DNA of 64,000 nt from Anaerolineae bacterium (GCA_039810085.1 JBDHWG010000002.1:96281-160280); one strand, 5' to 3'; shown: positions 12,201 through 27,286, counted from the stretch's first letter. A program made the numbers and translations. The notes: a model not told the origin generated them from the sequence alone.

Positions 12201-13712
12201 AATTTTGCTTTCATCCAACCGCACTTGCAGCTCGGCCAGACGGTCTTGCCGCTTGTGCCAGTGCTGCCAATACTCAGGGTAATCGCGCTGGAGCGACTGG
12301 AGCGTCTCCATCTCGGCCTGGTAACTCATGCCGCCACCGCTGCCGTCCAGCGGCCGCACGCGACTATAGAGCCTATTGAGCGCCTCATAGCGCTCGGCCA
12401 GTTCTGTTTCTACTTCGGGGACCATGTCAATCAAGCTCTTCGCCTGGACCATGCGCCGGGAGATCCCAGACCAGTTATCGTTCTTAAGAAGATTATCAAT
12501 CTCGTCGAGTATTTCAGCAGCAGCGGCTTGGGCGCGCGGAACAATGTTCTGGCGGAGCTCGTCCAGGGCGGGAAGCCAGCGGTAGGTATTTTGCGCGTCT
12601 TGCCACAACTTGTAGGCACGCACCGGGTCGGATTGCAGCCGGGCCTGCCCGGCCAGTCCCTGGGCTTTGAGATAAGCGTCTAGTTCCGGTTGAATCGCCT
12701 CTTCCATTGCCTCAATCTTTTGCTTGTACTCAGCCGGAACTTCGATGCCTATGCGGCTGTCATTGATGCCGCCAATCTCTTTCCATTTTGCCAGCTCCGC
12801 CTGGGCGTCGGAGGGGCGATGCGCATCCAGCCGCTCGCGGGCTGCCTGCACATACTCCTCAATCTTGGGCCGCCAGAACAGCTCAAGCATCCGCCGCCGA
12901 GCGACCGGCAAGGCCCTGGAAACTTCCATCGCTCGCGCCGCCTGACCTTTTGTGGCATCCGGATAGTAGGTGACCAACTCGTTGGGGTTGCGCTCCACCC
13001 GCGCCGTGAAATCAAGAAGCAGCTCGACGAATTCATTGCCGGTGTCACGGGTTTTTGTCACTTCGTGCCGTGTCCGCAGATCATCGTAGATTTGCTTCGC
13101 TCGGTCGCGCAGTTGCATGAGAGCGTCGCGCTGCTCCTGCTCCCACACCTGTCCCGCACCAAGAGCGCCAGTTACCTTCGTGAAGGCCTCTTCCGCGAAG
13201 GGAATAACCTGCTCGCCCTTCTCGCCTTCTTCGTCGCGCACCCGGTCCCACAGTGCGTTGACCTCTTTTTGAAGCGCCGCGAAGCGCTGGGCGCTCAAGG
13301 CACGGCTTTGGAGGGTCTGGAGACGCTCGTCGAGGCGGAGAGTATCGGATGGGGCAGTCCGCCCGGCTCGAAGCGCGCGGATATTGTCTAGAAGCTCGCC
13401 AACCTGGCGCAGCTCATCTTGGGACACATCATCGGCCAAGGTTGGCCGCCGCTCGAGCTGGCTCAGACGGTCGTTAGCCTCGTTCTCCAGCCGATCGATG
13501 AGCGGCTCAACCAGCGCCTCGTAGCGCCGCCGCAGGTCGCGGATGCGGGGCTGGTCTTGCAGCGTAAGGTTCGCTGCATCATCATTGCATTGCTTCAACA
13601 CGACCGGAATAGCGGCGAGATCGGCGAGGGACTTCCGAATCTCGCCGATGGACGATTGGGTGAACGCATCGAGTTGCTGACCGATGCGGTTCAATTTCTC
13701 ACTCACGGCCAT
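9270..13712 (-). CDS. 1480-aa all-alpha / coiled-coil protein (R/E/L/Q/A-rich), no recognisable catalytic motif; first gene of the FtsZl-1/vWA operon
   Basis: Long uninterrupted ORF. Its composition is typical of extended helical or coiled-coil scaffolds. It is translationally coupled to the phosphoesterase gene. Confidence 0.6.
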   Translation of the reverse strand: MAVSEKLNRIGQQLDAFTQSSIGEIRKSLADLAAIPVVLKQCNDDAANLTLQDQPRIRDLRRRYEALVEPLIDRLENEANDRLSQLERRPTLADDVSQDELRQVGELLDNIRALRAGRTAPSDTLRLDERLQTLQSRALSAQRFAALQKEVNALWDRVRDEEGEKGEQVIPFAEEAFTKVTGALGAGQVWEQEQRDALMQLRDRAKQIYDDLRTRHEVTKTRDTGNEFVELLLDFTARVERNPNELVTYYPDATKGQAARAMEVSRALPVARRRMLELFWRPKIEEYVQAARERLDAHRPSDAQAELAKWKEIGGINDSRIGIEVPAEYKQKIEAMEEAIQPELDAYLKAQGLAGQARLQSDPVRAYKLWQDAQNTYRWLPALDELRQNIVPRAQAAAAEILDEIDNLLKNDNWSGISRRMVQAKSLIDMVPEVETELAERYEALNRLYSRVRPLDGSGGGMSYQAEMETLQSLQRDYPEYWQHWHKRQDRLAELQVRLDESKIQDELRRICQPGTPLETVEKATLDYTRRLSQTSDLSSTQRQALSGAVDKLTAWQGYARARDEMAKLDNRAGNTGDAWLVPDLYVVETGLQAAMGDMGAAAAARAAQLQQKLDRIRRNEPAARGALERAQRLVEGGSLRELDEALRLLRNAIDQPSSLRPDLIGAQQEAQRRLAEMLAEQIRELIRAHRGTFYEHLTRDELEGLQRRYERLEMRDGDGVLELLAEPREVVKAWDAQRGLPATSITSKDWERVSSAWERVRQLASVGEEVREFCERKAREAQKQSRIARARLAQPEEAEVIYASLCNDPLFQEDWEVWKLHGDACFELARRALRGEDTVEKGVDYLDRADKSLAKARGLASDIGDQTLVNQRQEEWQPWSIIGRAGTNIYKHLRTGATLTAEACRQARLAYDGATRQLEQSPKHTVEPRRVLRTLWDQGRYAAQARLEGQARRARSIFDRIDAQLGIVILFQEDDEAAQGLRVQELQDLVVRAGSELRQRIQQVTYDYSAQQFRRHDKTTPDANVLDRQLVMAKQLVNERDVTRGALERLQLQMTTLGGRGPALAISPQEEEKADDWLAELNQFQDALDNVEAQIQLGLRDTRGFENARYILRLKGGQVSATFLQIPAGFRDSDHPSYRSQVKSLEQAELRRQHQETLANEIRLLLLHERVTQLDDLPTQLEDPAEMRLVDQIRQDLQQQPPIYPIETALLKMRRMQMEESQDACGLQDDIEYDDPDTHRVYRSLTVIIPIVEAKVQQLVMLRGWLHRFRVTATEEDQDVHGIVDWEKQKLVILELSDLGELQQAYTLCQETAMGVKQSQLKQDGKTVWCLLKAKMALSSEEFERFLRQQTDASASSRERIRLYEVVQRADRQRQAMQAHYQAQFDACITTGSIIQQRRDQYPVVWLRFQTAYNKLMNLRGKSAVANTEEWRKFTQVAHEFYPIAPKYVEYQAALRRVEEKFEMTPPGLIRRDTTSRPG

Positions 13713-13876: not shown

Positions 13877-14806
13877 ATGACGACTAGGTGCTGCTGGCAG
13901 TCCCACCACCACGTTCATGAGTTGCTGGACGGGTTGTGCGCAACGCAGGTTGAGCTGTGGTTGGAGCAGAGCAAAGAGCGTGGCGAAGTTGCGTCCCATG
14001 AGAACCTTACCGAGACGATTGCGCATTTGCTGCGTCAGAATCTGGCCAGCGGTCGGGTCGATCGTGTCTATCGCGCCTGTCAACCCGAGCCAAGCGTGAA
14101 TATGCCAGGTCTACTGACCAACGATGACGCGCGCGAGATACCTGACATCGAGAGTGAGACCCTCCGGCGAGCTGAGTCTCTGCACTTCTTGACGCAGTAC
14201 GTAGACCGACTCATCCGTTACTACGACCTTGAGCACAGACTGGTGACAAAACTCGGCGCGTCCGATCCACTCGCTTGGGAGCAACTGGGCAAAATGCTGA
14301 GGAATCGCGCCTATATCCTCCTCACCCGCCAGGGGGTGGACGTCAACCGCGCCATAGCTGAGGCCCCGGAATTTGCCCAGCAAGCGTGCGAAGTGATATG
14401 CAGCCACGCTTATTACTATGATGTTCCGTTCGCCGCCTGGGCCAATCTCATTCTGAAGAACCTCATCCTTCAACGCTATTGTCGCTCACACGACATCATG
14501 AGCCGGGTTGACCTGGAGCCGTTGGACAATGACGCGGATCAGGGCATCCATACCTGGGCGCTCCTTCACGAATGCTTAGCCAACCCGCACGAAGAGGACA
14601 TAGACAACATCGAGGAGTACGACTGGGTCGTAGACGCTATCTCTCGGATCAGGAGCAAATCGCAAAGATACGTTCTAACAGCTTCATTCTACGAGGAAGT
14701 GAGCGACGACGAGATTGCGCGACAGCTTGGGAAGAGTCGAAACGCGGTCTACATCTTGCGTCATAGGGCGCTGCAACATCTTCGCCGAACCCTTGATGGG
14801 GTTTAA
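13877..14806 (+). CDS. Sigma-70 family (ECF/group-4-like) RNA polymerase sigma factor with N-terminal extension
   Basis: Region-4 HTH ...RYVLTASFYEEVSDDEIARQLGKSRNAVYILRHRALQHLR. Region-2-like FAAWANLILKNLILQRY. Confidence 0.7.
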   Translation: MTTRCCWQSHHHVHELLDGLCATQVELWLEQSKERGEVASHENLTETIAHLLRQNLASGRVDRVYRACQPEPSVNMPGLLTNDDAREIPDIESETLRRAESLHFLTQYVDRLIRYYDLEHRLVTKLGASDPLAWEQLGKMLRNRAYILLTRQGVDVNRAIAEAPEFAQQACEVICSHAYYYDVPFAAWANLILKNLILQRYCRSHDIMSRVDLEPLDNDADQGIHTWALLHECLANPHEEDIDNIEEYDWVVDAISRIRSKSQRYVLTASFYEEVSDDEIARQLGKSRNAVYILRHRALQHLRRTLDGV

Positions 14807-14853: not shown

Positions 14854-15258
14854 TTGACCTATAAAAGGATGGAGCGAATGAGTTTCAGGGTCAATGCATG
14901 GTACGATGCCGAGATTCTTCGCCCTCTGTTCGAGGAGCGTCAGGCAACGCTTCGGTCACTTGGCGTTCATCCCTTGTCTTGCGAGGAGTGCCGGGACGTC
15001 CTCGATATCTACGTGTCTGACGAGCTAGACGGCGAAGACGTTGAGAAAACCTACCCCGCGTTGTCTCACCACCTCAGGCGCTGCCCGCTGTGTCAGGACG
15101 TCTACGCTGACGTGAAGTGGTGCCTGGCGCAAGGGCTTGCCGATCACCCGAGATGGACACCACCTGCGTCGCCCGCCTCCGACTCGTCGCCTTCACATGA
15201 TTCGATAGAGAGTCATGTAGGTGCGCCGGAGTCTTCTCGTCACTCCCCTAATAAGTAG
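14854..15258 (+). CDS. Anti-sigma factor, putative zinc-finger (zf-HC2) type
   Basis: Immediately downstream of the sigma factor. HPLSCEECRDVLDIYVSDELD...HHLRRCPLCQD matches the H-x3-C-x2-C zf-HC2 pattern of ChrR/RsrA-like anti-sigma factors. Confidence 0.6.
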   Translation: MTYKRMERMSFRVNAWYDAEILRPLFEERQATLRSLGVHPLSCEECRDVLDIYVSDELDGEDVEKTYPALSHHLRRCPLCQDVYADVKWCLAQGLADHPRWTPPASPASDSSPSHDSIESHVGAPESSRHSPNK

Positions 15259-15854
15259 ACCCTGAGATAGACCTCCCCAACTTTGGGACGCGAGGAATCC
15301 GTAATATAATGGAGTCTCTCAATCGGTGCGTCTTTGAACAACGTCGGGACCGTTTCCTGGAGCAGTTTCGCCACCTCTTCCGACAACTGGTTGCCCTTGA
15401 TATAGTTTGGGTGATTGCCGAAGGAGATGACAAAGCCGGCGCGCCGGTTGCTCAGGCTCTGGTACTGGCTCCAGATTTGCTGTCGCAATTGCAGGCGTTC
15501 GGCATCCTTCGCCGGGCCATCTGGCCCGAGCAAGACATCGGCGTTGGTCACAAGCGTTGCCTCGCGCGGGGCAAGTTCGACGCCGGGGCGCGTCGGAACG
15601 GGTGTCGGCGGAATCACCTCGGTTGGTGTGGAGGTTGGTGTCGGTGTCAAGGTCGGCGTCAGCGTAGACGTTGGCCGGGGCGTGGGGGTGCTCGTCGGTG
15701 TCAGCGTTGGCGTTGGCGTTGGCGTTGGAACGGCAGGCGCACCCGGGCTAGCGACAAGGAAAAGCATAGCCAGGCCGAGGAGTAGGTCGGCAAAAAGCCA
15801 ACCGCTGAGCAGCGTCATGTCTCGAACTGTACCGTGAGAGCCAGATTGAGCCAT
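15240..15854 (-). CDS. Membrane/secreted protein with TP-rich linker and conserved C-terminal domain (hypothetical)
   Basis: The ORF 15240..16013 overlaps the upstream gene by 140 bp. Internal starts MAQSG (15854, preceded by a GGGGGG SD-like stretch) or MTLLSGWLFADLLLGLAMLFLVA (15818) give an N-terminal TM/signal segment followed by a (TPTP)n linker. The start is uncertain. Confidence 0.45.
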   Translation of the reverse strand: MAQSGSHGTVRDMTLLSGWLFADLLLGLAMLFLVASPGAPAVPTPTPTPTLTPTSTPTPRPTSTLTPTLTPTPTSTPTEVIPPTPVPTRPGVELAPREATLVTNADVLLGPDGPAKDAERLQLRQQIWSQYQSLSNRRAGFVISFGNHPNYIKGNQLSEEVAKLLQETVPTLFKDAPIERLHYITDSSRPKVGEVYLRVYLLGE

Positions 15855-15873: not shown

Positions 15874-17343
15874 TTACGAGCTACCCTGGCCGCCGTTGGA
15901 CGTTGTACGACGCAGGGATTGCGAAATTGACTGAGCCGCCAGCTCCATAGCCTTGCTCGCGTCGGAGATGCGCTTGGTTGACGTTCCCTGCTGCTCCAGG
16001 ATGTAGCGGACATCGGCGCTGTAGTTGTCGGGCAGCGCTCGGATGGTATCCACCAGCTTGCGCATATCCGTTGCCATGGCGTGCAGGTTGGCGGCGTAGC
16101 TATTGACCTCTTTGAGCGACTGGTTGATGTCGCTGGCGGCGGCCGATACCATCCCCGCCACCTGGGTTTGGGTCTGGCCCTGGCTGGTCAGGGCGTCCAC
16201 AAGCTTGGTTTGCTCCTCGACCAGGCGCTGTGACAGGTCATGGAGCTTATCAGCCATATCGGACAGCCCTGGCATGGCCTCACTGATGGACTTGACCCCC
16301 TCATCCAGTGTGGAGCGCATCTCAGTCATGCCGGTCACGAGTTGCTGGTGGTTATCTGTCACCAACTTAAGCTGCGACACCGTCTGTTCGTAGGTGGAGA
16401 GCAGCTGGCTCTGCTGACCTGTGGACTTCGTTAGGAGATTAGTCAAACCAACCGCTGTTCCATTCAGCGCCCCGGCTGCCTCCTGTAGCGATTGGGCACT
16501 CATAGCCATCGTCTCGCTCACCGTTCGGAGATTTGTATGCGCCGAACTGAACCCGTCCACAACCTGCTTGAGCTTGTCGGTCTCTTGCTTCCGCAGTTCG
16601 GTGATCGCCATGAGTTCATCACGTGCTCCCACAATCGCCTCGACCGATTGCTGGGCCAGTTCCTTGAAATCCATAGTGACAGCCACCGGCTGGTTGGCCC
16701 GTTGGGTCTTGAGGAGGAGCGAGGCGAAGGCCAGGGTGTGCTCGATAGCGATCCGACAGCGCATGATATTTCTCTGCCGCATTCGCTGCACCCGGTTCGC
16801 ATACCAGTACGTCCCGAGGGTTAGCCCCAGCACGATGAGCAGAAGGAAAACGTCGAGACGAGCTACAAAACTGAGTGTCAAAGACGTTGTATCGCCGAAC
16901 CCGCCTTGCCAGAGGAGGAGAAACGGCTGCGTTGCCTGATCGGGATTCGCCTGTAGATACTGGTAGTAATGGTTCACAGCCTGCCAGATACCGAACCATG
17001 TTAGCAGGATAGGAACTAAAAAGGATGCATTCCGGATGGCCTCAAGCCAGCCCAGCCGTTTATCCGCCGCTGAGAAGTTCTCGATGTCTTCGGCAATGTG
17101 CTGCGGGTTGATGAGCGTGAAGAGTGGGCTGTCGGCCCACCCTGCAGCGTAGGATGCATTCGGTTGCTTGACAGCTGTGGCCAGGTTTCGCAGACGTATG
17201 CCAGCGCCTTCATCGCTGTCATCAACCTGATCGGCCAGGTTGATGAGGCGTTGAGACAGGTTCTCGCGATCCGCCTCGATTGTTGAGGATGTAGTGAACA
17301 AGCCATCAATAGGTGTGTCATAGGCTGTCGTCGAGGTCTCCAT
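15874..17343 (-). CDS. Two-TM membrane protein with long cytoplasmic coiled-coil (hypothetical)
   Basis: TM helices FLVPILLTWFGIWQAV and VFLLLIVLGLTLGTYWYA are followed by ~300 aa of heptad-like Q/L/S/T-rich sequence. Confidence 0.55.
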   Translation of the reverse strand: METSTTAYDTPIDGLFTTSSTIEADRENLSQRLINLADQVDDSDEGAGIRLRNLATAVKQPNASYAAGWADSPLFTLINPQHIAEDIENFSAADKRLGWLEAIRNASFLVPILLTWFGIWQAVNHYYQYLQANPDQATQPFLLLWQGGFGDTTSLTLSFVARLDVFLLLIVLGLTLGTYWYANRVQRMRQRNIMRCRIAIEHTLAFASLLLKTQRANQPVAVTMDFKELAQQSVEAIVGARDELMAITELRKQETDKLKQVVDGFSSAHTNLRTVSETMAMSAQSLQEAAGALNGTAVGLTNLLTKSTGQQSQLLSTYEQTVSQLKLVTDNHQQLVTGMTEMRSTLDEGVKSISEAMPGLSDMADKLHDLSQRLVEEQTKLVDALTSQGQTQTQVAGMVSAAASDINQSLKEVNSYAANLHAMATDMRKLVDTIRALPDNYSADVRYILEQQGTSTKRISDASKAMELAAQSISQSLRRTTSNGGQGSS

Positions 17344-17363: not shown

Positions 17364-19160
17364 CTACTTGGCAAGAACCCGATATGCAACGATGCTAATA
17401 ACGATGAGTAGGAGAAGAATGCCAGCTGTGATGAGCAGTCTGTCCAGCTGACTCGATCCACTAAAATACCCAATCTTCTCGTCGATAACACGGCCCATCG
17501 CAGGCTTCCAGAGCTTGCGTTCTTCGTCGGAAAGGTTCATGGCCTGGCTTATCGTAGCGATGTCGGCCCGACGCACGTTCTTCAACAACTTTATGGCGTT
17601 GTCCGCGAGGTCTCGCCTGGCCCCTCGCTGAGGCGGTTCCTGTAACTTATGTGGGTGCCGTACCAGCCACTCGACGTATGGAACAAGCGTCTTGGGTTGG
17701 CCGTTACGCCTGTACTCCGCAAGCGCCTCCTCCGCCAAATAATCGAATATGGTTTGGCCTTTAGGGTCTGCCGGCACTCGTGGGACGAGTCTGAGTCTCT
17801 GGACAACACTATCCAACTCATCATACGTTGTCACAGCCTTGACCAGGGCTTGAGTTAGTTCGTGACGCATCCCCGTGTGACTGGATTCGGTCCATAGCTG
17901 ATTCGAGGCCTTGGATGAGATCGGCAGAGCGATTGCCTTCCATACATCAGACGCCCGCCGCTGATCACCGTTAACACGCCAGCTTTCAACCTTTTCGACC
18001 GTGTAGTCCGCCAGCCGGTCCAGGGTCTCTTGCAAGGCGTCGTCGGGCTTCGTGAGTGCGACCACGCGAAGGGCCAGTAGACGGGCGTGTATCTTGTCGC
18101 GCCGCGCCGTGTCATCGGAGCTAAGCTCTAGAAGGTCTTTCTGGAAGGCCGGAAACGCTAGCATGTCTTTCGCCACACCAGGCGTCGTGAGAATCAACGT
18201 TCGGCCCTCGTCCGACCAGGGCGGCTTGACGATGCTTGCAAGGCGGCGATACGCCGTCAGGAAGCTGCCGGTGTCGGACAGCTGCGCGCCGTTGGCGAGC
18301 GTACGGATGGCTTCGAGGCGCGCCCGGCCATCGGCCGACCTCAGCTCCGAGCCGACGAACTTCGCGTACTCACGTACATCCCTGTCCTGAGCGATAGTTT
18401 CGGGGGGCACATTACAGTCAATCAGGATACCTCGCTCCTCAAAGGTGGAGCCGACAGGCCCCGTCCCGGACGGCCTCGATGTCTTTAGCCCTCCGTAGAG
18501 GCCGACAATCTGTTGCGGCGCTTGGTCAGGGTTCGCTTCGTACGTGCTGAAGGTGAGACCGGGCAGCAGGCACGCCGGGAGTGTGTGCGTCAGGCCGTAG
18601 ATAAGCACAGCCGCATCCTCGGCTGACGCCGAGATATACAGATGCTGTCCCTCATGCCGGGACAGGTAGGCTTCAAGAAGGGAGGGGAGATAGTATTGGG
18701 CGATGCGTGATTCAAGATCCGACAGATCCAGCGTTCCCTTTGGGATATCGGATGGGCGTATCTCCGACAGCATGTTCTCGGAGGCCGGCAGCGGGTCCGA
18801 CCGGTGCCAGAAGTTCGACCCCCACAGCTCAATCGCTTCGGCGGCAGTGAACTCAGCGGGCAAACCCGCCACGACATGAATGAAGTAATTACCAGGCCGA
18901 CCCGTGTAGTCTTTGCCGAGCGAGACCTTGTGCACGACGGCGCGCTCGTGGCCTGTGTCCACAAGCGCCAGGCAAACGGGCGCTTCGTCGGGCGCAAGGG
19001 CAACGCCGCCCTGTGGCAGAACGTATCGCAAGTAGGGATCGAGGGCGGCGATGCGCGGGTTGCGCCGGTCCCGCAGCTGACCGGACGCGGCGCGAACCTG
19101 GAAGCCTAGCGCCCCACCTAGACCGACAGGCGAGAACGTGTAGAACAGCTGGTCGGCCAT
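17364..19160 (-). CDS. GAP1-like (GTPase-associated protein) N-terminal domain protein with C-terminal TM anchor
   Basis: The N-terminus MADQLFYTFSPVGLGGALGFQVRAASGQL matches a Q-L-[YF]-Y-T-[SF]-x-x-G-L-x-G-x-x-G-F-Q-x-x-A-x-S-x-G pattern. I recall this from memory for partners of conflict-system GTPases. It lies 8 nt upstream of a GTPase gene. The C-terminus LLITAGILLLLIVISIVAYRVL is hydrophobic. Confidence 0.5.
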   Translation of the reverse strand: MADQLFYTFSPVGLGGALGFQVRAASGQLRDRRNPRIAALDPYLRYVLPQGGVALAPDEAPVCLALVDTGHERAVVHKVSLGKDYTGRPGNYFIHVVAGLPAEFTAAEAIELWGSNFWHRSDPLPASENMLSEIRPSDIPKGTLDLSDLESRIAQYYLPSLLEAYLSRHEGQHLYISASAEDAAVLIYGLTHTLPACLLPGLTFSTYEANPDQAPQQIVGLYGGLKTSRPSGTGPVGSTFEERGILIDCNVPPETIAQDRDVREYAKFVGSELRSADGRARLEAIRTLANGAQLSDTGSFLTAYRRLASIVKPPWSDEGRTLILTTPGVAKDMLAFPAFQKDLLELSSDDTARRDKIHARLLALRVVALTKPDDALQETLDRLADYTVEKVESWRVNGDQRRASDVWKAIALPISSKASNQLWTESSHTGMRHELTQALVKAVTTYDELDSVVQRLRLVPRVPADPKGQTIFDYLAEEALAEYRRNGQPKTLVPYVEWLVRHPHKLQEPPQRGARRDLADNAIKLLKNVRRADIATISQAMNLSDEERKLWKPAMGRVIDEKIGYFSGSSQLDRLLITAGILLLLIVISIVAYRVLAK

Positions 19161-19168
19161 AACAATGC

Positions 19169-20377
19169 CTACTTCTCGCCGCCGAGCGTGTGGGTGGGGT
19201 GCGCAGAGGAAGCAGCGGTGGACTCAGCGCACTCGACGATGCCCAACTGCGCCAGGCACCACACAAGAGGGTCGAGACAGCGAATCGGCCGCGGGTCAAC
19301 GTAGTGTCCCTCGAACGCGGCTTCGCCCGTCGCCGAGGTCGCGCAAGTCGTCACTGTCTCGAATTTGGAGCGCGCCGCCTCGATCAGGTTGCCCGCTCCG
19401 AAGCGGCGTAAGAACGCCTCTGTCTCCTGCCGCGTGCTCTCCATAGCCTCTTGTTGACAGCCACGCGGATAGCGCGTGTCTTGCAGCAGGGGCGAGTCGG
19501 GCGGCAATCCTCCGATGACAAACTCGAGCAAGTCGGACTTCGCGATGGTCAGGGCGAGGGGCACAGGAATACGGTGGCTGCGCCGTCCATCTCTATTGAG
19601 CGCAAAAACGGCGGTCAGCTTGCTCATCATCTGATACGCGTCGTCACTTGCCGCAGTGATTGCGTCGTCGGCCCGAAAATACTTGGGAAGAACCTCTACC
19701 ACGTTGGGCAGAGTGAGCGGGTCAATGAGCAGCAGGATGGCGGCTGCATTCACGATGTGGGCAACACCTCGCCGCAGGGTGTCCTGGTCCTGCAAGTCCT
19801 CCCCGGAGACATCGAAGAACACGAGATTGACCTTGCGGGGTTCGGCAGAACGCGAAGAAGTGCCCCCGGCAAATTCCGCTTCATAGACGAGCGGAACATA
19901 GACCTCGGATGTCCTTATTCGCTGCGTATGAATGAGCGGCTCACGGGAGACAAAGAGTGGGGCATAGTAGTCCGCTTTGTAGCGCACATCCACATCTTGG
20001 CTCGCCGCCCTGAAGCTCGAACAGCCCAGGCCAGACAGGCCGCCTTCTTTCAATGTCTTGATTAAGGCAGCCAGGTACTGGCTCTTCCCGGACGAACTCC
20101 CCCCGACAATGGCGATGGGGAGCATCTCAGCCTCGTCAGCGTTGGGCGGCAGGAGATTGCCGCAATCAGAGCAGCGCCAGGTTGCCAATGTCCTGTTGTA
20201 TTTCTCACCTCTTATCGAGGGCGTCCATATCCAGCCGATGCCTCGCGCGATCCCCGCAGGACGCGAGCGTAGGACACGCTCCCCCTCATCGACAGCCACG
20301 ATGTCACACTCGCCAAGGCGAATGGCGTGGAAACACGTCGGGCAGATAGTTTTCTCGAATGGGCTGGTGAATGGCAT
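19169..20377 (-). CDS. P-loop GTPase with N-terminal zinc ribbon
   Basis: CPTC...WRCSDCG is two CxxC pairs. Walker A/G1 is AIVGGSSSGKS. G3 (DxxG) is VFFDVSGED. G4-like is TIAKSD. Confidence 0.65.
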   Translation of the reverse strand: MPFTSPFEKTICPTCFHAIRLGECDIVAVDEGERVLRSRPAGIARGIGWIWTPSIRGEKYNRTLATWRCSDCGNLLPPNADEAEMLPIAIVGGSSSGKSQYLAALIKTLKEGGLSGLGCSSFRAASQDVDVRYKADYYAPLFVSREPLIHTQRIRTSEVYVPLVYEAEFAGGTSSRSAEPRKVNLVFFDVSGEDLQDQDTLRRGVAHIVNAAAILLLIDPLTLPNVVEVLPKYFRADDAITAASDDAYQMMSKLTAVFALNRDGRRSHRIPVPLALTIAKSDLLEFVIGGLPPDSPLLQDTRYPRGCQQEAMESTRQETEAFLRRFGAGNLIEAARSKFETVTTCATSATGEAAFEGHYVDPRPIRCLDPLVWCLAQLGIVECAESTAASSAHPTHTLGGEK

Positions 20378-20548: not shown

Positions 20549-22483
20549 TTATGGAGCCAATGCGGCGCGGCTGTACTCGTTGGCCCGGCGCGCGAAAATA
20601 GGCAGCGGGGTGGCGCTCGGCTGTTCAGCTGGCAACCCGAGAAGCTCGTATGCCTGGTTGTAGTACACCGTCGCCAGGCGCTCATTGACCTGCCGATGCA
20701 GCGCGGGGTCGGTAGCGGCGTGTTGGTAGCATGCTCGTGCTTCGTCATACAGCCCAAAGGCTTCGTAGACCGCGCCGCGAAGAAGCCAGCCGCTCGCGTC
20801 TCTGCTGTCCGCGATCGACGGCTCTGCGAGCATCAAATCGAGCATCTGGCGTTCGTCCTGCGACAGAAGCCGGAAGGCCGCCCGACGAGTCACGCTCCGC
20901 TGCGTCACGTGCCCCTGAAAGTCAAGGCAGGGGTAGGTGACACTCAACTGCCAGCTGCACTTGCCTTCGCCGGCAAGCTGCGCCGCTATCTCGGCCGGGC
21001 AATTCAAGCGGTGAACCCGCTCGGCCTCGGCTCTCGTGTCGAAAGGCGCCTCCAAATCCAGGACGACGACCGACGATGTCCAGACGACCGCATTGCCAGC
21101 GCGAATTGTCACTTGGGCTGTCAACGGCGGCAGGCTCCCTTCCTGGTCCAGCACATCCTGGCAGGCGTCCATGATCTCCTGGCCGACAGTCCACTGGAAC
21201 ACAGGCGACTCACGCAGTGAGCAGCTTGCGGGCGCAAGCAGCTCTGGCGTCGCACCCAAGTGGAACTCTACCTTGACGTGAATCTCAACGTGGAGTCTAC
21301 ACAGAAACCCCACAACCCGCCGCAGCCGCCGTCGCGCCTCGGGCTGTGGCGCTGACGCCCGCCGCTCAAGTTTCGCCCGTGTCGCAAGATTGAAATCGCC
21401 CAGGCCAGGGAAGCACGCCGAATCGAACAGCCGCCCGTCCGAGGCGCGCATAAAGAGCACAGGGATGCTCCATTCGGCCTGGGTGAGGTCAGTTTGCAGG
21501 AGCGCTTTGCGGCCCTCTGTGACAGCCGCATCGACCGCCAGCCCGCCAGCGACGGCCTCGTAGAACTCGCTGGCAAAAATGCCAGCTTGCCAGTCACGCG
21601 GGCTGCCCCACATTCCAACCACCGCCGGAACCCCCGCCTGGATGAGCGCTGGTCCCACGCCCTGGCTCACATTGCTGTGGGCCGGCTCAGCGGTGTGACA
21701 CGCATTCAGAACCGCCAGCCGAACCTGGGTGTCGCTGAGCATTTGGGCCAGCTCCACCGCTGACAAACGGTCTAGCGGTTGATGGTCGCCGAGCAGATAC
21801 AGTTCGCCGCCTTTATTCGCGTTATATCTCCCATGGCCAATGAAATGGAATACGTGATAGCCCTGGCGAAGCTTATCCTGCAATGCTGCCCGTGTAGTCT
21901 CCTCGATGCAGTCCAGGACGAGTAGCCCCCTCTCCAACAGAGGCTCTAGCGCCTTCGTGACTCGGTTGCGCTCCTCGGCTGTGTCCAACGTGCTTAAGCC
22001 AGATGACGAGCCAGTCACGAGCAAGACCCGCAGCGGCAATTGGACCATGAGCGGCTGGATCGGGTACGGCGCCGGCAGGTAACGCACGAGGGGTGTGTTG
22101 AGAGACAGGGCGACGAAGTTTCTGGCGTTGATACCATCATACAGCATCTCCCAGCGGAGACGCGCTACGTCCGGCTCGGGTAAATGCAGACGGACGCGCA
22201 GCCCTTGATCGGCCCCCAGTCTGGCTCGACTGGTGGTATAGCATTGCACCACGTCCTCGGTAAATGCAAAGCCATACGGCTCGCCCGCTGCTGCCCGATC
22301 CCCGTGGACGTTCAACAGCAGACCCAGTCCACCTGCATCAGACGGCGCTCCAGGCTTCACGGGTACGCGGTACAGCCCGCCGCTCGCGTCTCCCGCGAGG
22401 TCAGATCGCGCCTCCACTCTGTACTGGCACTCGCCCGGCGCCTGGTTCTGCGTGACGCGTAGGTCGAAATTCACATATCTCAT
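20549..22483 (-). CDS. CHAT domain (caspase-like) peptidase with C-terminal TPR-like helical region
   Basis: YHVFHFIGHG (His) and LAVLNACHT (Cys) form the characteristic CHAT/caspase dyad. The C-terminal ~150 aa is helical repeats. Confidence 0.75.
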   Translation of the reverse strand: MRYVNFDLRVTQNQAPGECQYRVEARSDLAGDASGGLYRVPVKPGAPSDAGGLGLLLNVHGDRAAAGEPYGFAFTEDVVQCYTTSRARLGADQGLRVRLHLPEPDVARLRWEMLYDGINARNFVALSLNTPLVRYLPAPYPIQPLMVQLPLRVLLVTGSSSGLSTLDTAEERNRVTKALEPLLERGLLVLDCIEETTRAALQDKLRQGYHVFHFIGHGRYNANKGGELYLLGDHQPLDRLSAVELAQMLSDTQVRLAVLNACHTAEPAHSNVSQGVGPALIQAGVPAVVGMWGSPRDWQAGIFASEFYEAVAGGLAVDAAVTEGRKALLQTDLTQAEWSIPVLFMRASDGRLFDSACFPGLGDFNLATRAKLERRASAPQPEARRRLRRVVGFLCRLHVEIHVKVEFHLGATPELLAPASCSLRESPVFQWTVGQEIMDACQDVLDQEGSLPPLTAQVTIRAGNAVVWTSSVVVLDLEAPFDTRAEAERVHRLNCPAEIAAQLAGEGKCSWQLSVTYPCLDFQGHVTQRSVTRRAAFRLLSQDERQMLDLMLAEPSIADSRDASGWLLRGAVYEAFGLYDEARACYQHAATDPALHRQVNERLATVYYNQAYELLGLPAEQPSATPLPIFARRANEYSRAALAP

Positions 22484-22492
22484 GCGCCTCCC

Positions 22493-25400
22493 TTAGCCCT
22501 CGACTGGCGCGACAGATTGCGGCCCGACGGACATCGGCAGGAGCGGCGCGCCAACTCCGTCCCTGAGCGTCTTAATGCGGTAAAGGTGGTTTATCTCCGA
22601 GAGACGCATGCCCTGGGGGCGTGTCTCGAACTGTTTCGCTACAAATGCGATCCAATCGTAGGTTTGCTGCGGGACAATGTCTTCAGTTGTACCCGTAGCC
22701 GTGTCCACGCCGGCGCGGACCGCCACGTCGGCAAGCCCCTGGGTGAGAGTGCAGCACCCCAGGAACGTCTTATCCCCGCGAGCCTGGGTAATGTCGTTCG
22801 GGCTTATCTTGCCGCCTTTAGACACCATGTTGTTGTTCGCATCCATGTGTCCGATGATAAAGACATCGACGCCTGGGCGACTCAGCTCGGCGAGGACCTT
22901 CTCGCGGTCGTTGGCCTGGCCTCTGATACCTACGATTTGCGCTCCCTGCCGTTTCAACGGCTCTACCGCTGTGTCGAAAGCTGCGCGGCTGCGCTCAGCC
23001 TCTTCTGGCGTGAGTCGGGGGTCCTCCAGGTTCACGACGACCATCTGGCTCGGCATGATATTGGCTTCCGCATTGATGACGGCCCTGGCGTGCAGGGGTG
23101 TCGAGGTCTCTCCCACCAGTCGCACGTTGTTCGCTCCCAGTTCGTTGTGAGCGAATGCACCCAGGTCGGGGCGCATGTCGAGAAGCACAGGCCCATCCCC
23201 CGGCAGCAGCCAGCGAAACTGCTCATCATAGATCGGCGGGAGCTTCACCACCTCGCCCGACTGACCCGCGCGACTGAGACTGGCTTCAACCGCCCCCTTC
23301 ACCCTCTCCCGAACCGCCGCGTCGCCGATGACGCGGAGGCCGGGGTAGAACTCGTCAACCCGCTGCAGGATGTCGTGGGGATCCGCCGCCGGCGCCTGCT
23401 GTGTGAAGGTGGCTTCGATTGCGTCGCGCATGAGCATGCTCATCTCTCGCGTGACCTGCCTGCCACTCTCGTGAGACGTCGCTTGCACCTGGGCTAACTC
23501 CTGCCCTTTCGTCATGACTTCTGGGGATGTTGGCGCAAGCTCGCCGCCCCCAGTAAGCCAGGCAAATGTGCGGCGGCTATCCGCGCCATCCGTCTTGGTA
23601 TCCACTTCGAAGATGCCGGTGACACGCAGCCCCTTCGCCTGTGCGCCCACATCCGCAACCAAGCGGACGGCATCGTCCTGAGGGTGCGCGAGCCTGTCGA
23701 AATGGCGCTCCACGAGCGCCCCGTCCGTCCCCGCAACGAGGACCACCACCTCCGCCGCGCCCTCGTTCACCCCGCCAACGGCGCCGCTTTGCACATCAAG
23801 AAGACGCGTCGCATAACCGCGCTCCTTAAGCTGTGTCAACGCCGGTTGCGCTTTGACCAGCGCGTCCTGCGCCTCTTTGGAGTCCAGCCGACCGTCGATG
23901 ACGGCCGTGTCGCCCGCGAAGCGGAGAGCAAACTTGCCCGTCAGCTCGATAATCGCCGTCTTGCTTCCCTGTTTGGCGAATCCGGACCAGTCCAACTTTG
24001 AGCTATCGGACAGTGCCTGATACAGGATGCTGTTGAGTTCGAGCTTCACGCCCTGCAGCGCCTTCCGCGCCTCGGCAGGGTCGGCGGTCTGCTTTGTCTC
24101 AGTGACTGAAACCTCGGTTACCTTTGCCTGTCGGTTCCGTTGGATCGTGATGGTTCGCCGCTGCGAGTCTCGGACGACCTCGATCATGGAGCCATCCGGG
24201 TTGTAGCTAATTGCGTGGACAGAGCCATTGTCCTGATACCAGGTGACGCGGCCTATGTCATCGATGCGGGTCACGATCACCTTGTCCTGGAGTTGGAACC
24301 GGCTGGGGGAGCCGTTGGCGTAGTTGACCCGAAGCACGCGTCCGTCCGACCCGCTGACGTCCGTCAGACGCTCGCCGTCGTACGTCAGGTTGGCGCTTTT
24401 GCCGTTCGAGCCGACGATGTGCGTCAGCTTGTTGTTGTCATACTGGAACTCAATCTGACCGCCAGAGGAATGCGCGGCTTTCGTCAGGTGGTCCGCCGCA
24501 TCATACTTGTAGTCAATATGCTCGCCATCTCGCGCCTGGGAGCGCAACTGACCGTCTTCATCAAAGGTGTACTGATCCAGGCCATCCTGGTGCACGAAGG
24601 TGTGCGTCTCCCTATCGTACCTTATCTCGCTCGGCGCCGCGTTACCCTCCGCCGCATAGATGATGCGTCCGTCCCCGTCGATCCGTTTCGTGTTGTAGAA
24701 GCGTTGCTGGCGGCCCGTTGCGTCGTCCACAACGGTAAGCGAGTCGTAGAGCTTGATGGGCTGACCATTCATGATGAATGTATCGCCGCCGTCCAGGGTC
24801 ATCCGTTTCTGCTCCAGCCGCCACCCCTTGCCGAGAGGTGACGTCTCCTGGTCCACGGAGGTATAACCAATGACCGTGTTGAGCGGCAGTTGGCCCTTCA
24901 CCGCAATATCCATCACCTTCTCGCGGACGGTCAAAGCGCCCGGTAGCAGTGTCGGCTGCATCGAAATAGCGACACCGGTCACGGTCTTACCATCTCCATT
25001 AGCCGATGTTTTCGCGCTGTCGAGAGGCGTGTTCTCGACAGCCTCGCGTATGCCGCGCACGCTGCCGTCCTCTTTTAACGGCAGGGGCTTGTTGCGGAAG
25101 GCATAGTCAACGCCCCCGAATACGGCAGAGATTTGAGTCCAAATCTTGTCGCTCGACTGCTCTGATTTCGACCGCTGCACCGCGTGTCCGGGAGTCGTCT
25201 TCGGTGTCTCAGCGCCAATCGGGTAGCTCGCGAGCCAGTTGAGGTCAACCGGAGCATTGTTGTCGTGCAGCCACCGGGCTACGCTGAGTAGCTTAGCTAA
25301 CTGCTTCAGCGCGCCGACCTCGGGCTTTTCAGCCGCGAATGCGTCGAAGTGGGTGTTGAAGTGATTGACAAAGGCATCAACGACCGGGTCGGAACCGGCC

Positions 25401-26464
25401 ACGTCGTGCTTGTTCCCCTGGCTGTCGAATTGCACAAAACGCGCTTCGATGCCCAGCGGCACATCGTCGAAGAGCATGACCTGGCGGTCGTCGCTGACGC
25501 GCACATCAAGCTTCTGATCCTTGAGCAAGTACCACATGCGGTGCCACTGCGGGTTGGTCTGTTGTCCGCCAAGCTGCAGGCGCAGATCGACTTCACTCTG
25601 GTAGCCTGGCACCGCCAGCGTGACAGGTTCGTGGGTTATCGTGTCCTCGCCCAGGCCCAGTGTCTTGAGATAGCGGTCTGCCTCATACATCACCAGGCCG
25701 AAATGGGTCCCTTCCGTCTGGCCGTAGTAGCTCACTTTCATAGTCCCAGACGGGTTACGCGGGTCTATCGGATCAATACTGACGCCGGCGTCCTCGTGAC
25801 TCGAGTATACTGACCGCAACGCCACGACCAGGTCGCTCGGGTCGAGCTCGGGCAGGGACGGATTGTGGACGCCTAGCAGAAAGAGACGGCCTGTCGAAGG
25901 CTCATAAACCGCGCCGGTCAGGTCATTGATGTGCGCCAGCTGGGGCAGGCTGATCGACGGAGAGAGACCGCCCAACCCACCCCCGACGTCATAGTCCTTC
26001 GACGATACGCCGAGTTGCGCCAACAGGTCCGCAGCTTTGGAGGCCGGGTTGGCCGTGTTGAATGTGTAGCGGGTGGTCTTGTCTACAGCAAAGAGGATCT
26101 GGATGCTGGGGCCTGGTGGGGGCAATGACGCGGGGGACGCGGCGGCTGAGCTGCTCCCTAACCCACCGCCAGGCGGCGCATTTGCGCCGGTCGTTGGAGC
26201 GTTACTGGCCTGTGATGCCTTTGGCCTGGCATCGGCGGCGGGCGATGAGGGGCGGCTCAGGACGGATGGCAGCGTCGGCAACTTGGCCGCTAATGGTCGC
26301 AGTGGCCCGACGAGAATCAGACCCGCCACGAGGGCGACGAGAGCAAGGCCCACAACTGCCGCGATGATCAGCCATCGTCGAGACTTCGACGCGCGGCGGT
26401 ATGTGTACGGCGTCCCACTTTCATTCGTGGGCGTGTAGCGGAGACTATCCCAATCATCGCTCAT
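22493..26464 (-). CDS. 1323-aa membrane-anchored protein with YD/RHS-like repeats and possible C-terminal caspase-like His/Cys dyad
   Basis: N-terminal TM WLIIAAVVGLALVALVAGLILV. Multiple YD-type repeats (YTFDEDGQL, YKYDAADHL, QYDNNKL, YDGERLTDV, SYNPDGSM). The C-terminus has FIIGHMD and then FLGCCT ~35 aa later. It lies 10 nt downstream of the CHAT gene. Confidence 0.6.
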   Translation of the reverse strand: MSDDWDSLRYTPTNESGTPYTYRRASKSRRWLIIAAVVGLALVALVAGLILVGPLRPLAAKLPTLPSVLSRPSSPAADARPKASQASNAPTTGANAPPGGGLGSSSAAASPASLPPPGPSIQILFAVDKTTRYTFNTANPASKAADLLAQLGVSSKDYDVGGGLGGLSPSISLPQLAHINDLTGAVYEPSTGRLFLLGVHNPSLPELDPSDLVVALRSVYSSHEDAGVSIDPIDPRNPSGTMKVSYYGQTEGTHFGLVMYEADRYLKTLGLGEDTITHEPVTLAVPGYQSEVDLRLQLGGQQTNPQWHRMWYLLKDQKLDVRVSDDRQVMLFDDVPLGIEARFVQFDSQGNKHDVAGSDPVVDAFVNHFNTHFDAFAAEKPEVGALKQLAKLLSVARWLHDNNAPVDLNWLASYPIGAETPKTTPGHAVQRSKSEQSSDKIWTQISAVFGGVDYAFRNKPLPLKEDGSVRGIREAVENTPLDSAKTSANGDGKTVTGVAISMQPTLLPGALTVREKVMDIAVKGQLPLNTVIGYTSVDQETSPLGKGWRLEQKRMTLDGGDTFIMNGQPIKLYDSLTVVDDATGRQQRFYNTKRIDGDGRIIYAAEGNAAPSEIRYDRETHTFVHQDGLDQYTFDEDGQLRSQARDGEHIDYKYDAADHLTKAAHSSGGQIEFQYDNNKLTHIVGSNGKSANLTYDGERLTDVSGSDGRVLRVNYANGSPSRFQLQDKVIVTRIDDIGRVTWYQDNGSVHAISYNPDGSMIEVVRDSQRRTITIQRNRQAKVTEVSVTETKQTADPAEARKALQGVKLELNSILYQALSDSSKLDWSGFAKQGSKTAIIELTGKFALRFAGDTAVIDGRLDSKEAQDALVKAQPALTQLKERGYATRLLDVQSGAVGGVNEGAAEVVVLVAGTDGALVERHFDRLAHPQDDAVRLVADVGAQAKGLRVTGIFEVDTKTDGADSRRTFAWLTGGGELAPTSPEVMTKGQELAQVQATSHESGRQVTREMSMLMRDAIEATFTQQAPAADPHDILQRVDEFYPGLRVIGDAAVRERVKGAVEASLSRAGQSGEVVKLPPIYDEQFRWLLPGDGPVLLDMRPDLGAFAHNELGANNVRLVGETSTPLHARAVINAEANIMPSQMVVVNLEDPRLTPEEAERSRAAFDTAVEPLKRQGAQIVGIRGQANDREKVLAELSRPGVDVFIIGHMDANNNMVSKGGKISPNDITQARGDKTFLGCCTLTQGLADVAVRAGVDTATGTTEDIVPQQTYDWIAFVAKQFETRPQGMRLSEINHLYRIKTLRDGVGAPLLPMSVGPQSVAPVEG

Positions 26465-27239: not shown

Positions 27240-27286
27240 GTCCTTAGCCTCCGCCTGCCCTATCGCGCAGCACTTACGAACGGGAA

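What the first reader, a model, noticed from the sequence alone, without database searches (positions are those of the whole stretch)
17364..20377. GAP1-like protein + zinc-ribbon P-loop GTPase pair, core of a GTPase-centric conflict system
The 402-aa protein has two N-terminal CxxC pairs followed by clear G1 (GGSSSGKS), G3 (DVSG) and G4-like (AKSD) motifs. This is a small Zn-ribbon GTPase unlike Era/Obg/EngA housekeeping GTPases. Its upstream neighbour, 8 nt away, begins MADQLFYTFSPVGLGGALGFQVRAASGQL. This N-terminal signature is found in GAP1-type partners of conflict-system GTPases described in multicellular bacteria. Unusually, this copy ends in a hydrophobic membrane anchor. Such pairs are proposed to gate effector release by GTP hydrolysis. 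None is experimentally characterised.
Basis: partly seen in the sequence, partly recalled or inferred. Interest (0 to 1): 0.75.

Follow-up and report, generated by a model that had tools for sequence, protein, structure and literature searches.

The report
Membrane-linked GTPase–GAP1 switch operon
This is a real but computationally already-described kind of bacterial GTPase "switch" system (DO-GTPase plus GAP1-N2 partner), here the first half of a four-gene membrane-associated operon in a Chloroflexota genome. No system of this type has been tested experimentally in the literature I could search.

Summary
ORF 19169..20377 (-) encodes a 402-aa zinc-ribbon GTPase with all five G motifs intact. 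Eight nt downstream (not upstream) lies a 598-aa protein ending in a transmembrane anchor. [quoted passage not shown] 2020. No housekeeping GTPase model matches; the nearest solved fold is the stress GTPase YcjX. A GAP1-N gene is linked to the GTPase in 73 of 80 related loci with room.

The pair is half of a tight four-gene operon. It continues with a two-hydrophobic-segment coiled-coil protein (489 aa) and a single-pass protein (204 aa) with a near-invariant membrane aspartate. That membrane pair also occurs without the GTPase, next to a kinase-like gene that this window lacks.

Membrane-spanning GAP1 is common (28 of 88 sampled), though a tail anchor is rare (3 of 88). Homologues of the neighbouring CHAT and YD genes were absent from the Chloroflexota relatives; CHAT relatives occur only in two Gemmataceae loci. 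The nearby tubulin/vWA cassette is an independent module.

Verdict: new member of a known, uncharacterised kind. Mechanism and conflict role remain inferred.

The parts
19169..20377 (-). Zinc-ribbon DO-GTPase2-family GTPase, 402 aa; first gene of the operon
20150..20353 (-). N-terminal zinc ribbon (residues about 9-76: C12xxC15, C24, C69xxC72)
   Evidence: C69 and C72 are invariant and C12, C15 and C24 at least 90% conserved in alignment A1. The four CxxC cysteines (C12, C15, C69, C72) are conserved in 88-95 of 104 sequences across phyla.
19244..20128 (-). G domain (residues about 84-378) with G1-G5 and a C-terminal P364-x-RCLDP-xx-W373 motif
   Evidence: Invariant G92, K98, D189, G192, E193, K280, D282, G351, R366, C367, L368, D369, P370 and W373. 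T151 is conserved in 91 of 104 sequences. E193 is the Walker-B glutamate named as a family hallmark in PMC7159879.
17364..19160 (-). GAP1 (GTPase-associated protein 1) of the N2 type, 598 aa, tail-anchored; second gene, 8 nt after the GTPase stop
   Evidence: Pfam GAP1-N2 and GAP1-M. 899 relatives at E<=1e-3 among 1.84 billion representatives, none covering residues beyond about 440. 40% identity over residues 3-251 with the GAP1 of L001.
18798..19160 (-). GAP1-N2 domain (residues 1-121)
   Evidence: PF20013 at 51.8 bits. Q4, L5, Y7, T8, G13, R23, A24, S26, H95, W113 and W118 are invariant among 11 Chloroflexota relatives. G82, D84, R88, H95 and W118 are at least 80% conserved across 92 sequences.
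18495..18692 (-). GAP1-M domain (residues 157-222), with the TFSTYE motif
   Evidence: PF20014 at 33 bits. P195, T203, F204, Y207 and I218 are invariant.
17373..17447 (-). C-terminal transmembrane tail anchor of GAP1 (residues about 572-596)
   Evidence: Kyte-Doolittle peak of 2.85 at residues 575-593. A long terminal helix appears in the otherwise low-confidence AF2 model.
15874..17343 (-). Third gene: 489-aa membrane protein with two hydrophobic segments (about 102-123 and 157-182) and a long C-terminal coiled coil; no curated family
   Evidence: A 20-nt gap with a GGAGG ribosome-binding site follows GAP1. Homologues sit directly after GAP1 in 22 loci. The conserved membrane-domain motifs are R104, N105, P111, T115, W116, F141, L144, W145, F149, D164 and T175. 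Two hydrophobic segments recur across the family. Only coiled-coil-type hits were found, to the ZorA tail, JetC and SMC.
15240..15854 (-). Fourth gene: 204-aa single-pass protein (TM residues about 14-36 with near-invariant GWLFAD23LLL), Pro/Thr-rich linker and a C-terminal globular domain of about 110 aa. The true start is ATG 15854, not the 257-aa ORF start.
   Evidence: Homology begins at residue about 58-62 of the 257-aa ORF. The ATG at 15854 is preceded by GGGACGGGGGG and lies 19 nt after the stop of the third gene. G18, W19, L20, A22, D23, L26, L28 and F32 are at least 90% conserved in 24 sequences. It lies directly downstream of the 489-aa homologue in 49 of 58 metagenome loci with room.
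20549..22483 (-). CHAT (caspase-like) protease with TPR, 644 aa, 171 nt upstream on the same strand. A possible variable partner, not a conserved one.
   Evidence: Pfam CHAT at 84.6 bits. The His216/Cys261 dyad motifs FIGHG and LNACH are present. Homologues lie near DO-GTPase/GAP1 only in two Gemmataceae loci, L066 and L068.

Best explanation
**What it is.** Genes 20377->15240 on the minus strand form one tightly packed operon, with intergenic gaps of 8, 20 and 19 nt. It encodes a membrane-associated GAP1-N2-type DO-GTPase system with four components:
1. A cytoplasmic zinc-ribbon GTPase with all G motifs intact.
2. Its cognate GAP1 partner (N2 + M domains, then a lineage-specific helical region), tethered to the membrane by a C-terminal tail anchor.
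3. A membrane protein with a two-segment hydrophobic hairpin and a long, probably cytoplasmic, coiled coil.
4. A single-pass protein whose Pro/Thr linker and small globular domain probably face outward.

**What is shown.** Family membership of genes 1 and 2, conservation of their linkage, and conservation of the four-gene order in Chloroflexota. Genes 3 and 4 are also shown to form a separable pair.

**What is inferred.**
- The GTPase binds the conserved GAP1-N2/M module and acts as a GTP/GDP-dependent switch or timer at the inner face of the membrane.
- The membrane pair supplies the envelope-side input or output.
- The variable GAP1 C-terminal region gives specificity.
- Following Kaur et al. 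2020, the biological role would be threshold-setting in a conflict (anti-invader) response in a multicellular or filamentous bacterium. No effector is identified with confidence.
For: **Family assignment.**
- Pfam hits are above the curated cut-offs.
- The Walker-B Glu193 is invariant, the hallmark stated in PMC7159879.
- A DO-GTPase2 occurs with a GAP1-N2, as the paper's co-evolution rule predicts.

**Linkage.**
- GAP1-N lies next to the GTPase in 73 of 80 loci with room.
- The order GTPase-GAP1-489aa-204aa recurs in 22-23 Chloroflexota loci.
- The genes are separated by only 8, 20 and 19 nt, with ribosome-binding sites upstream of the third and fourth genes.

**Membrane location.**
- GAP1 carries a tail anchor.
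- The third protein's family has two hydrophobic segments.
- The fourth protein has a conserved TM with basic residues on its N-terminal side.
- The paper independently infers a membrane-proximal role for GAP1-N2 systems.

**Features expected of a conflict system.**
- The GAP1 C-terminal half has no relatives.
- Several genomes carry multiple or duplicated GAP1 and GTPase copies.
- Neighbouring genes differ between loci and include kinases, PP2C, TIR, VMAP/MoxR and CHAT.
Against: - No experiment exists for any GAP1 system.
- The physical GTPase-GAP1 interaction and any GAP or GEF activity are inferred only.
- My GAP1 structure model failed (pLDDT 51.5), so its fold and interface are unknown.
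- No enzymatic effector is conserved inside the cassette.
- The FNIII-repeat protein that the paper describes for GAP1-N2 systems was not found in the cassette.
- The system is absent from PADLOC models and from phage records. On plasmids it occurs only on three actinobacterial megaplasmids or chromids.
- The 489aa/204aa pair often sits in what look like stable chromosomal contexts without any GTPase. This fits an envelope-signalling role as well as a defence role.
- The operon boundary towards the CHAT gene is undetermined; promoter and terminator scans were uninformative.
Confidence: 0.6

Rival explanations
1. The operon is an envelope-stress or morphogenesis signalling module, not a conflict system. 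In this reading the GTPase/GAP1 pair modulates a conserved membrane pair (489aa/204aa) that monitors or remodels the cell envelope in filamentous bacteria. It would be analogous to the Psp-regulon GTPase YcjX with its membrane partner YcjF.
For: - The nearest solved structure is YcjX, and PMC11237479 links DO-GTPase-family proteins to membrane stress.
- In about two thirds of metagenome loci the 489aa/204aa pair has no GTPase nearby. There it lies beside a kinase-like gene in recurring contexts with oxidoreductase, Ser/Thr kinase and NrdR genes.
- No enzymatic effector lies in the cassette.
- There is no phage or small-plasmid carriage.
Against: - GAP1 C-termini are highly variable.
- Copies are duplicated or split in some genomes.
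- Distribution is patchy: the best relative in 185,579 species genomes is only 39% identical.
- Flanking genes are typical of the conflict systems of Kaur et al., including CHAT, TIR, VMAP/MoxR and tubulin/vWA.
Confidence: 0.27
2. The upstream CHAT-TPR protease and the YD/RHS-like protein are the effectors gated by this GTPase/GAP1 pair.
For: - They lie on the same strand. The YD gene ends 9 nt before the CHAT gene, and the CHAT gene ends 171 nt before the GTPase gene.
- The CHAT His/Cys dyad is intact.
- Related CHAT proteins (E about 1e-26) lie about 3 kb downstream of the GTPase-GAP1-GTPase cluster in two Gemmataceae loci.
- The paper lists caspase-superfamily peptidases as effectors, although for GAP1-N1 systems.
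Against: - No CHAT or RHS homologue lies within 10 kb of the cassette in the 22-23 Chloroflexota loci that carry it.
- In about half of the Chloroflexota loci the upstream position is held by a kinase-like protein instead.
- No shared adaptor domain (EAD or GAAD) was detected.
- Co-transcription is untested.
Confidence: 0.2
3. The 489aa/204aa pair is an ion-driven stator-like complex of the MotAB/ExbBD/ZorAB kind. A long cytoplasmic tail would relay envelope events to the GTPase/GAP1 switch.
For: - The single-pass partner has a near-invariant Asp in its TM (GWLFAD23LLL).
- hhalign places this Asp on Asp32 of E. coli MotB.
- The partner's membrane segments carry invariant Pro, Thr and Asp.
- 11 of 17 family members hit ZorA models, best E 2.4e-7 for the model most members match and 1.3e-8 over all ZorA models.
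- The layout of a membrane domain plus a long coiled-coil tail resembles ZorA.
Against:
- For the window's protein, the only one whose match coordinates were returned, the ZorA hits cover the coiled-coil tail rather than the channel domain.
- No MotA_ExbB, MotB_plug or ExbD Pfam hit was found in any member. Only 1 of 24 members hit ZorB weakly, outside the TM.
- The family has two hydrophobic segments, against three to four TM helices in MotA, ExbB and ZorA.
Confidence: 0.1
4. The GTPase is an ordinary housekeeping TRAFAC GTPase (Era, Obg, EngA or similar) that happens to lie next to an unrelated membrane protein.
For: Only the generic P-loop G motifs support this.
Against: - No housekeeping GTPase model in Pfam or NCBIfam matches.
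- The specific DO-GTPase2 model does match.
- The partner hits GAP1-N2 and GAP1-M.
- The pairing is conserved in 73 of 80 loci.
Confidence: 0.01

Closest known systems
GAP1-N2-type GTPase-centric (DO-GTPase/GAP1) systems, Kaur, Burroughs, Iyer & Aravind, eLife 2020 (PMC7159879); Pfam PF19993, PF20013, PF20014
   Same: - A zinc-ribbon TRAFAC GTPase with a Walker-B glutamate.
- A GAP1 gene immediately downstream, carrying N2 and M domains.
- GAP1 with a C-terminal TM, and further TM components in the operon.
- Occurrence in Chloroflexota, one of the listed phyla.
- Variable neighbouring genes.
   Different: - A single GTPase rather than two paralogues; the paper reports two in only 38% of systems.
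- One zinc ribbon's worth of cysteines rather than two ribbons.
- GAP1 is short (598 aa against about 900-1400 aa in most relatives), with an orphan C-terminal half.
- No FNIII-repeat protein was detected in the cassette.
- The third and fourth genes, a hairpin coiled-coil protein and a single-pass Asp-TM protein, are not described in the paper's text.
- It lacks the kinase-like gene that precedes the GTPase in about half of the Chloroflexota relatives.
YcjX stress GTPase (PDB 6nz4/6nz5) with membrane partner YcjF, Psp regulon
   Same: - It is a Ras-like bacterial GTPase encoded next to a membrane protein.
- PMC11237479 assigns it to the DO-GTPase family.
   Different: - There is no sequence-level match: Pfam finds only DO-GTPase1 and 2, and the profile search of PDB sequences finds nothing significant.
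- TM-scores are low, at 0.3-0.37.
- YcjX has no zinc ribbon and no GAP1 partner; this point rests on my own knowledge and was not tested here.
Zorya ZorAB / MotAB-type stator units
   Same: - A membrane protein with a long coiled-coil tail, paired with a single-pass protein carrying a conserved TM aspartate and an external domain.
- ZorA models are the most frequent PADLOC hit for the 489-aa family.
   Different: - For the window's protein the hits cover only the coiled-coil tail.
- There are no channel-domain or MotB-plug matches.
- The family has two rather than three to four membrane segments.
- No ZorC/ZorD-like genes were found.
- This is an analogy, not a membership.
Tubulin/vWA theme of GAP1-N2 neighbourhoods (Kaur et al. 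2020)
   Same: A Tubulin_2 protein and a vWA protein with a beta-sandwich (Filamin) repeat are encoded 1.5 kb beyond the end of the operon.
   Different: - The paper restricts this theme to Firmicutes and Actinobacteria.
- Here the tubulin cassette is separated from the operon by an opposite-strand ECF sigma gene.
- In three other Chloroflexota contigs the same four-gene tubulin cassette has other genes directly upstream. Only about 1.8-2 kb upstream was visible there.
- None of the 22-23 cassette-bearing loci has the tubulin cassette downstream.

Membership tests
GAP1-N2-type DO-GTPase/GAP1 system (PMC7159879) | GTPase of the DO-GTPase family (TRAFAC) | tested here: met
   PF19993 DO-GTPase2 at 34.4 bits against a cut-off of 27. 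Nearly all of the 32 homologues carry PF19993.
GAP1-N2-type DO-GTPase/GAP1 system (PMC7159879) | Conserved glutamate in the Walker B motif (DxxGE) | tested here: met
   D189-V-S-G192-E193. E193 is invariant in 23 sequences and present in 94 of 104.
GAP1-N2-type DO-GTPase/GAP1 system (PMC7159879) | GAP1 protein with a GAP1-N2 domain | tested here: met
   PF20013 at 51.8 bits against a cut-off of 24, residues 1-121.
GAP1-N2-type DO-GTPase/GAP1 system (PMC7159879) | GAP1-M middle domain | tested here: met
   PF20014 at 33 bits against a cut-off of 24, residues 157-222.
GAP1-N2-type DO-GTPase/GAP1 system (PMC7159879) | GAP1-C domain | tested here: inconclusive
   No Pfam model matched here or in relatives. 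Residues about 250-400 align with some relatives and could correspond to it. Residues beyond 440 have no relatives.
GAP1-N2-type DO-GTPase/GAP1 system (PMC7159879) | GAP1 gene adjacent to, and typically downstream of, the GTPase gene, with conserved linkage | tested here: met
   An 8-nt gap. Of 82 loci, 54 have GAP1 immediately downstream and 19 have it within 1.5 kb upstream; 7 have room but no detectable GAP1.
GAP1-N2-type DO-GTPase/GAP1 system (PMC7159879) | N-terminal zinc ribbon(s) on the GTPase (frequent, not universal) | tested here: met
   C12xxC15 and C69xxC72 are conserved. This is enough cysteine for one ribbon, whereas the paper says GAP1-N2 systems usually have two.
GAP1-N2-type DO-GTPase/GAP1 system (PMC7159879) | Two paralogous GTPases (present in 38% of systems, so not obligatory) | tested here: not met
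   My GTPase HMM finds only one GTPase in the 64-kb window.
GAP1-N2-type DO-GTPase/GAP1 system (PMC7159879) | Accompanying FNIII-repeat protein (a typical accessory, not one of the two core components) | tested here: not met
   No fn3 hit in any neighbouring protein. The only Ig-like repeat is a Filamin repeat in the vWA protein of the separate tubulin cassette.
GAP1-N2-type DO-GTPase/GAP1 system (PMC7159879) | Role in biological conflict, gating effector deployment | not testable with these tools
   This is a prediction in the paper. No experimental paper was found and there is no PADLOC model.
Housekeeping TRAFAC GTPases (Era, Obg, EngA, YihA and others) | Match to the family models or closest fold | tested here: not met
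   [not shown]
Zorya ZorAB / MotAB stators (for genes 3 and 4) | MotA/ExbB-type channel domain and MotB-type TM/plug | tested here: not met
   For the window's protein the ZorA hits lie in the coiled-coil tail. No MotA_ExbB, MotB_plug or ExbD hits were found, and only 1 of 24 members hit ZorB at E 0.018. hhalign against MotB gave a probability of 3.4%.

The most novel reading that the evidence does not exclude
The third and fourth genes may encode a previously unrecognised two-protein membrane machine. It would consist of a hairpin protein with a long cytoplasmic coiled-coil tail and a single-pass partner with a MotB-like invariant TM aspartate.

Evolution appears to have coupled this pair to alternative cytoplasmic switches: a kinase-like protein alone, a kinase-like protein plus GTPase/GAP1, or, as in this window, GTPase/GAP1 alone with a tail-anchored GAP1. 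If the pair is an ion-driven or mechanosensitive transducer like ZorAB, this operon would couple envelope events to a Ras-like GTPase switch. I know of no such signalling route described in bacteria.
Probability: 0.12. Interest if true: 0.8.

Novelty: new member of a known kind. Interest (0 to 1): 0.4.

Why it matters
DO-GTPase/GAP1 systems were predicted in 2020 to be threshold-setting switches of conflict systems enriched in multicellular bacteria. As far as the searchable literature shows, none has been tested.

This locus is a compact, intact example of four genes and about 5.1 kb, which makes it a candidate for a first experimental test.

The comparative work here adds one point. In Chloroflexota the GTPase/GAP1 pair is embedded in a larger modular cassette whose membrane pair also exists on its own. 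This indicates where the input or output of the switch should be sought. It also raises an alternative to the defence interpretation, namely envelope signalling.

Tried and rejected
- **GAP1 structure.** No fold search of GAP1 was therefore done.
- **PDB sequence searches.** Profile searches with the GTPase and GAP1 alignments found nothing significant.
- **Unavailable resources.** The afdb50 fold library was not available, and the YcjX paper PMC6697224 is not held.
- **Defence and naming libraries.** PADLOC and NCBIfam have no model for the GTPase, GAP1 or the 204-aa protein.
- **Operon boundary.** Promoter and terminator scans gave nothing that defines it.
- **Island markers.** No tRNA genes are present in the window.
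- **MotB/ZorB homology of the 204-aa protein.** Pfam and PADLOC scans of 24 members were negative and hhalign gave a probability of 3.4%. I kept this only as a low-probability lead.
- **Possible GTPase-GAP1 fusion.** P0133 turned out to be a tandem GAP1-N2 protein, not a fusion.
- **Tubulin/vWA cassette as part of the system.** Rejected as a conserved link.
- **Paper supplement.** The stored supplement held only an organism list, with no neighbourhood data.


Full report
**Observation.** Both ORFs are real and lie on the minus strand: 19169..20377 (402 aa) and 17364..19160 (598 aa).

The 402-aa protein has the following features:
- Cysteine pairs C12xxC15 and C69xxC72, plus C24.
- G1 G92GSSSGKS99.
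- Switch-I T151.
- G3 D189VSGE193.
- G4 A279KSD282.
- G5 S348ATG351.
- A C-terminal motif P364-x-RCLDP-xx-W373.

All of these are invariant or at least 80% conserved across 23 close and 104 wider homologues.

The 598-aa protein begins MADQLFYTFSPVGLGG and ends in a strongly hydrophobic helix. The genes are 8 nt apart, but the GAP1-like gene is downstream of the GTPase gene in the direction of transcription. The identical GTPase is found in several independent assemblies.

**Identity.** Pfam gives DO-GTPase2 (34.4 bits, cut-off 27) and a sub-threshold DO-GTPase1 for the GTPase. It gives GAP1-N2 (51.8 bits) and GAP1-M (33 bits), both against cut-offs of 24, for the partner. No housekeeping GTPase model in Pfam or NCBIfam matches.

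[quoted passage not shown] 2020:
- A zinc-ribbon GTPase with a Walker-B glutamate.
- GAP1 encoded downstream.
- GAP1 frequently carrying a C-terminal TM.
- Presence in Chloroflexi.

**Source organism.** The window probably comes from a Chloroflexota genome. The best named relatives of its tubulin-like protein are Chloroflexales and Candidatus Chloroploca (47-49% identity). The GTPase relatives are led by Ktedonobacteria and Chloroflexia.

**Conservation of the pairing.** A scan of 185,579 species genomes returned 79 loci. With three more from contig look-ups I built HMMs and searched all ORFs. Of 82 independent loci:
- 54 have a GAP1-N gene immediately downstream of a GTPase.
- 19 have it within 1.5 kb upstream on the same strand; this is the actinobacterial arrangement.
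- 7 have room but no detectable GAP1.
- 2 end at the contig edge.

The nearest GTPase relative is only 35-39% identical. GAP1 has 899 relatives among 1.84 billion cluster representatives. Homology covers residues 1 to about 220-440 and never the C-terminal part. This fits a constant N2/M module joined to a variable region.

**The pair is half of an operon.** GAP1 is followed after 20 nt by a 489-aa gene, with a GGAGG ribosome-binding site. After a further 19 nt comes a 204-aa gene whose true start is ATG 15854. The same order, GTPase-GAP1-489aa-204aa, is found in 22-23 Chloroflexota loci.

- *The 489-aa family.* It has a conserved N-terminal membrane domain with two hydrophobic segments and a variable coiled coil. 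Invariant residues are R104, N105, P111, T115, W116, F141, L144, W145, F149, D164 and T175.
- *The 204-aa family.* It has a basic N-terminus and a TM with near-invariant GWLFAD23LLL. A Pro/Thr- or Ala/Thr/Gln-rich linker, or an Ig-like insert, follows, then a C-terminal domain of about 110 aa.

Neither family has a Pfam, NCBIfam or PADLOC model.

**The membrane pair is separable.** I seeded a metagenome scan with the 489-aa family. The 204-aa homologue follows directly in 49 of 58 loci with room. A GTPase lies upstream in only 12 of 32 loci with at least 6 kb of upstream sequence.

In roughly 30 of the 80 metagenome loci, mostly those without a GTPase, the pair lies next to a divergently transcribed kinase-like protein of about 650-1050 aa, with weak APH, ABC1 and Pkinase hits. 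The same kinase-like protein sits immediately upstream of the GTPase in about 19 of 38 Chloroflexota GTPase loci.

The fuller cassette is therefore kinase-like / GTPase / GAP1 / 489aa / 204aa. The window has no homologue of the kinase-like gene, even at E<=10. A CHAT-TPR gene occupies that position instead.

**Neighbours.**
- *CHAT and YD genes.* The CHAT-TPR gene (20549..22483) and the YD/RHS-like gene (22493..26464) lie on the same strand. Their homologues are absent from the Chloroflexota cassette loci. Related CHAT proteins occur only in two Gemmataceae loci.
- *Tubulin cassette.* The tubulin/vWA/Metallophos/1480-aa cassette (13712..1330) is conserved as a unit in three other Chloroflexota contigs. 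There it has different upstream neighbours, although only about 1.8-2 kb upstream was visible. It is not found downstream of the GTPase cassettes. It is separated from the operon by an opposite-strand ECF sigma gene.

I therefore treat both sets of neighbours as adjacent modules, not as demonstrated parts of the system.

**Mechanism.**
- *Shown:* family membership, intact catalytic motifs, conserved linkage and operon structure, and predicted membrane segments.
- *Inferred:* the GTPase binds GAP1-N2/M and works as a GTP-dependent switch at the inner membrane face. GAP1 is tail-anchored and the coiled coil of the 489-aa protein is cytoplasmic, given the basic stretch after the second hydrophobic segment. 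The 204-aa protein presents its C-terminal domain outside the cell.

The conflict role is the published prediction. Variable GAP1 C-termini, multi-copy loci and conflict-type neighbours favour it. Against it stand the lack of a conserved effector, the lack of phage or small-plasmid carriage, and the apparently stable contexts of the stand-alone membrane pair. These points keep an envelope-signalling role open.

A ZorAB/MotAB-like reading of genes 3 and 4 is suggested by the TM aspartate and by ZorA-model hits in 11 of 17 members. It failed every formal test.

**Limits.** The GAP1 model was unusable. No solved homologue is detectable by sequence. No experimental literature on GAP1 systems was found.

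**Verdict.** This is a new, somewhat reduced member of a known, computationally defined and experimentally untouched kind. It has a single GTPase, a short tail-anchored GAP1 and no kinase-like gene.

Noticed in passing
window 1330..13712 (-): A four-gene cassette: a 1480-aa protein with no family, a calcineurin-like phosphoesterase (324 aa), VWA_2 + Filamin repeat (874 aa), and Tubulin_2 with three C-terminal zinc ribbons (1435 aa). The same four genes occur in the same order in a Chloroflexales MAG, in Ca. Chloroploca and in a Logan contig. In two of these a protein of about 1900 aa with vWA, Tricorn/PD40 and Tubulin_2 domains follows. None of the three has a GTPase/GAP1 in the about 1.8-2 kb visible upstream.
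   Followed up: partly
L091-L170 (metagenome loci), e.g. L096 7856..12823, L119 7418..12806: The 489aa/204aa membrane pair exists widely without GTPase/GAP1. There it lies next to a divergently transcribed kinase-like protein of 650-840 aa (weak APH, ABC1 and Pkinase hits). A short form of 243 aa + 155 aa also exists (L157-L170). None of these families has a curated model.
   Followed up: partly
window 22493..26464 (-): A 1323-aa protein with an N-terminal TM segment, a low-complexity region and a few YD/RHS repeats. Its last 230 aa or so align weakly (E 0.019) with the His/Cys catalytic region of the CHAT domain encoded by the next gene: IIGH against FIGHG, and FLGCC against LNAC. This suggests a second caspase-like domain.
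   Followed up: partly
window 13877..14806 (+): An ECF-type sigma factor (TIGR02937, 47.9 bits) with an N-terminal extension of about 150 aa. It is transcribed convergently with the GTPase operon (3' ends facing) and divergently from the tubulin cassette.
   Followed up: no
window 26508..31492 (-): Upstream of the YD gene lie four further genes. They are a 2H/LigT-like phosphoesterase (243 aa), a 167-aa protein with a weak 'invert_tail' hit, a 658-aa protein with no family, and a 556-aa ADP-PFK/GK-like kinase-fold protein. Their relation to the GTPase operon is unknown.
   Followed up: no
L005, L007, L008, L021 (Dictyobacter spp.): Four Dictyobacter genomes share a syntenic extended locus. A second, oppositely oriented GTPase lies upstream of the cassette. 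A short (about 300 aa) oppositely oriented GAP1-N protein lies just after the fourth gene.
   Followed up: no
L010, L021, L034, L035, L037: GTPase and/or GAP1 reading frames are split into two or more ORFs in several MAGs. This could reflect pseudogenisation or long-read assembly frameshifts; I could not tell which.
   Followed up: no
window 42764..46264 (+) and 56932..57498 (-): A large secreted-type subtilase (S8 + PA + PKD, 1166 aa) and a PIN-domain protein (188 aa) lie elsewhere in the window. Both are ordinary and unrelated to the finding.
   Followed up: no
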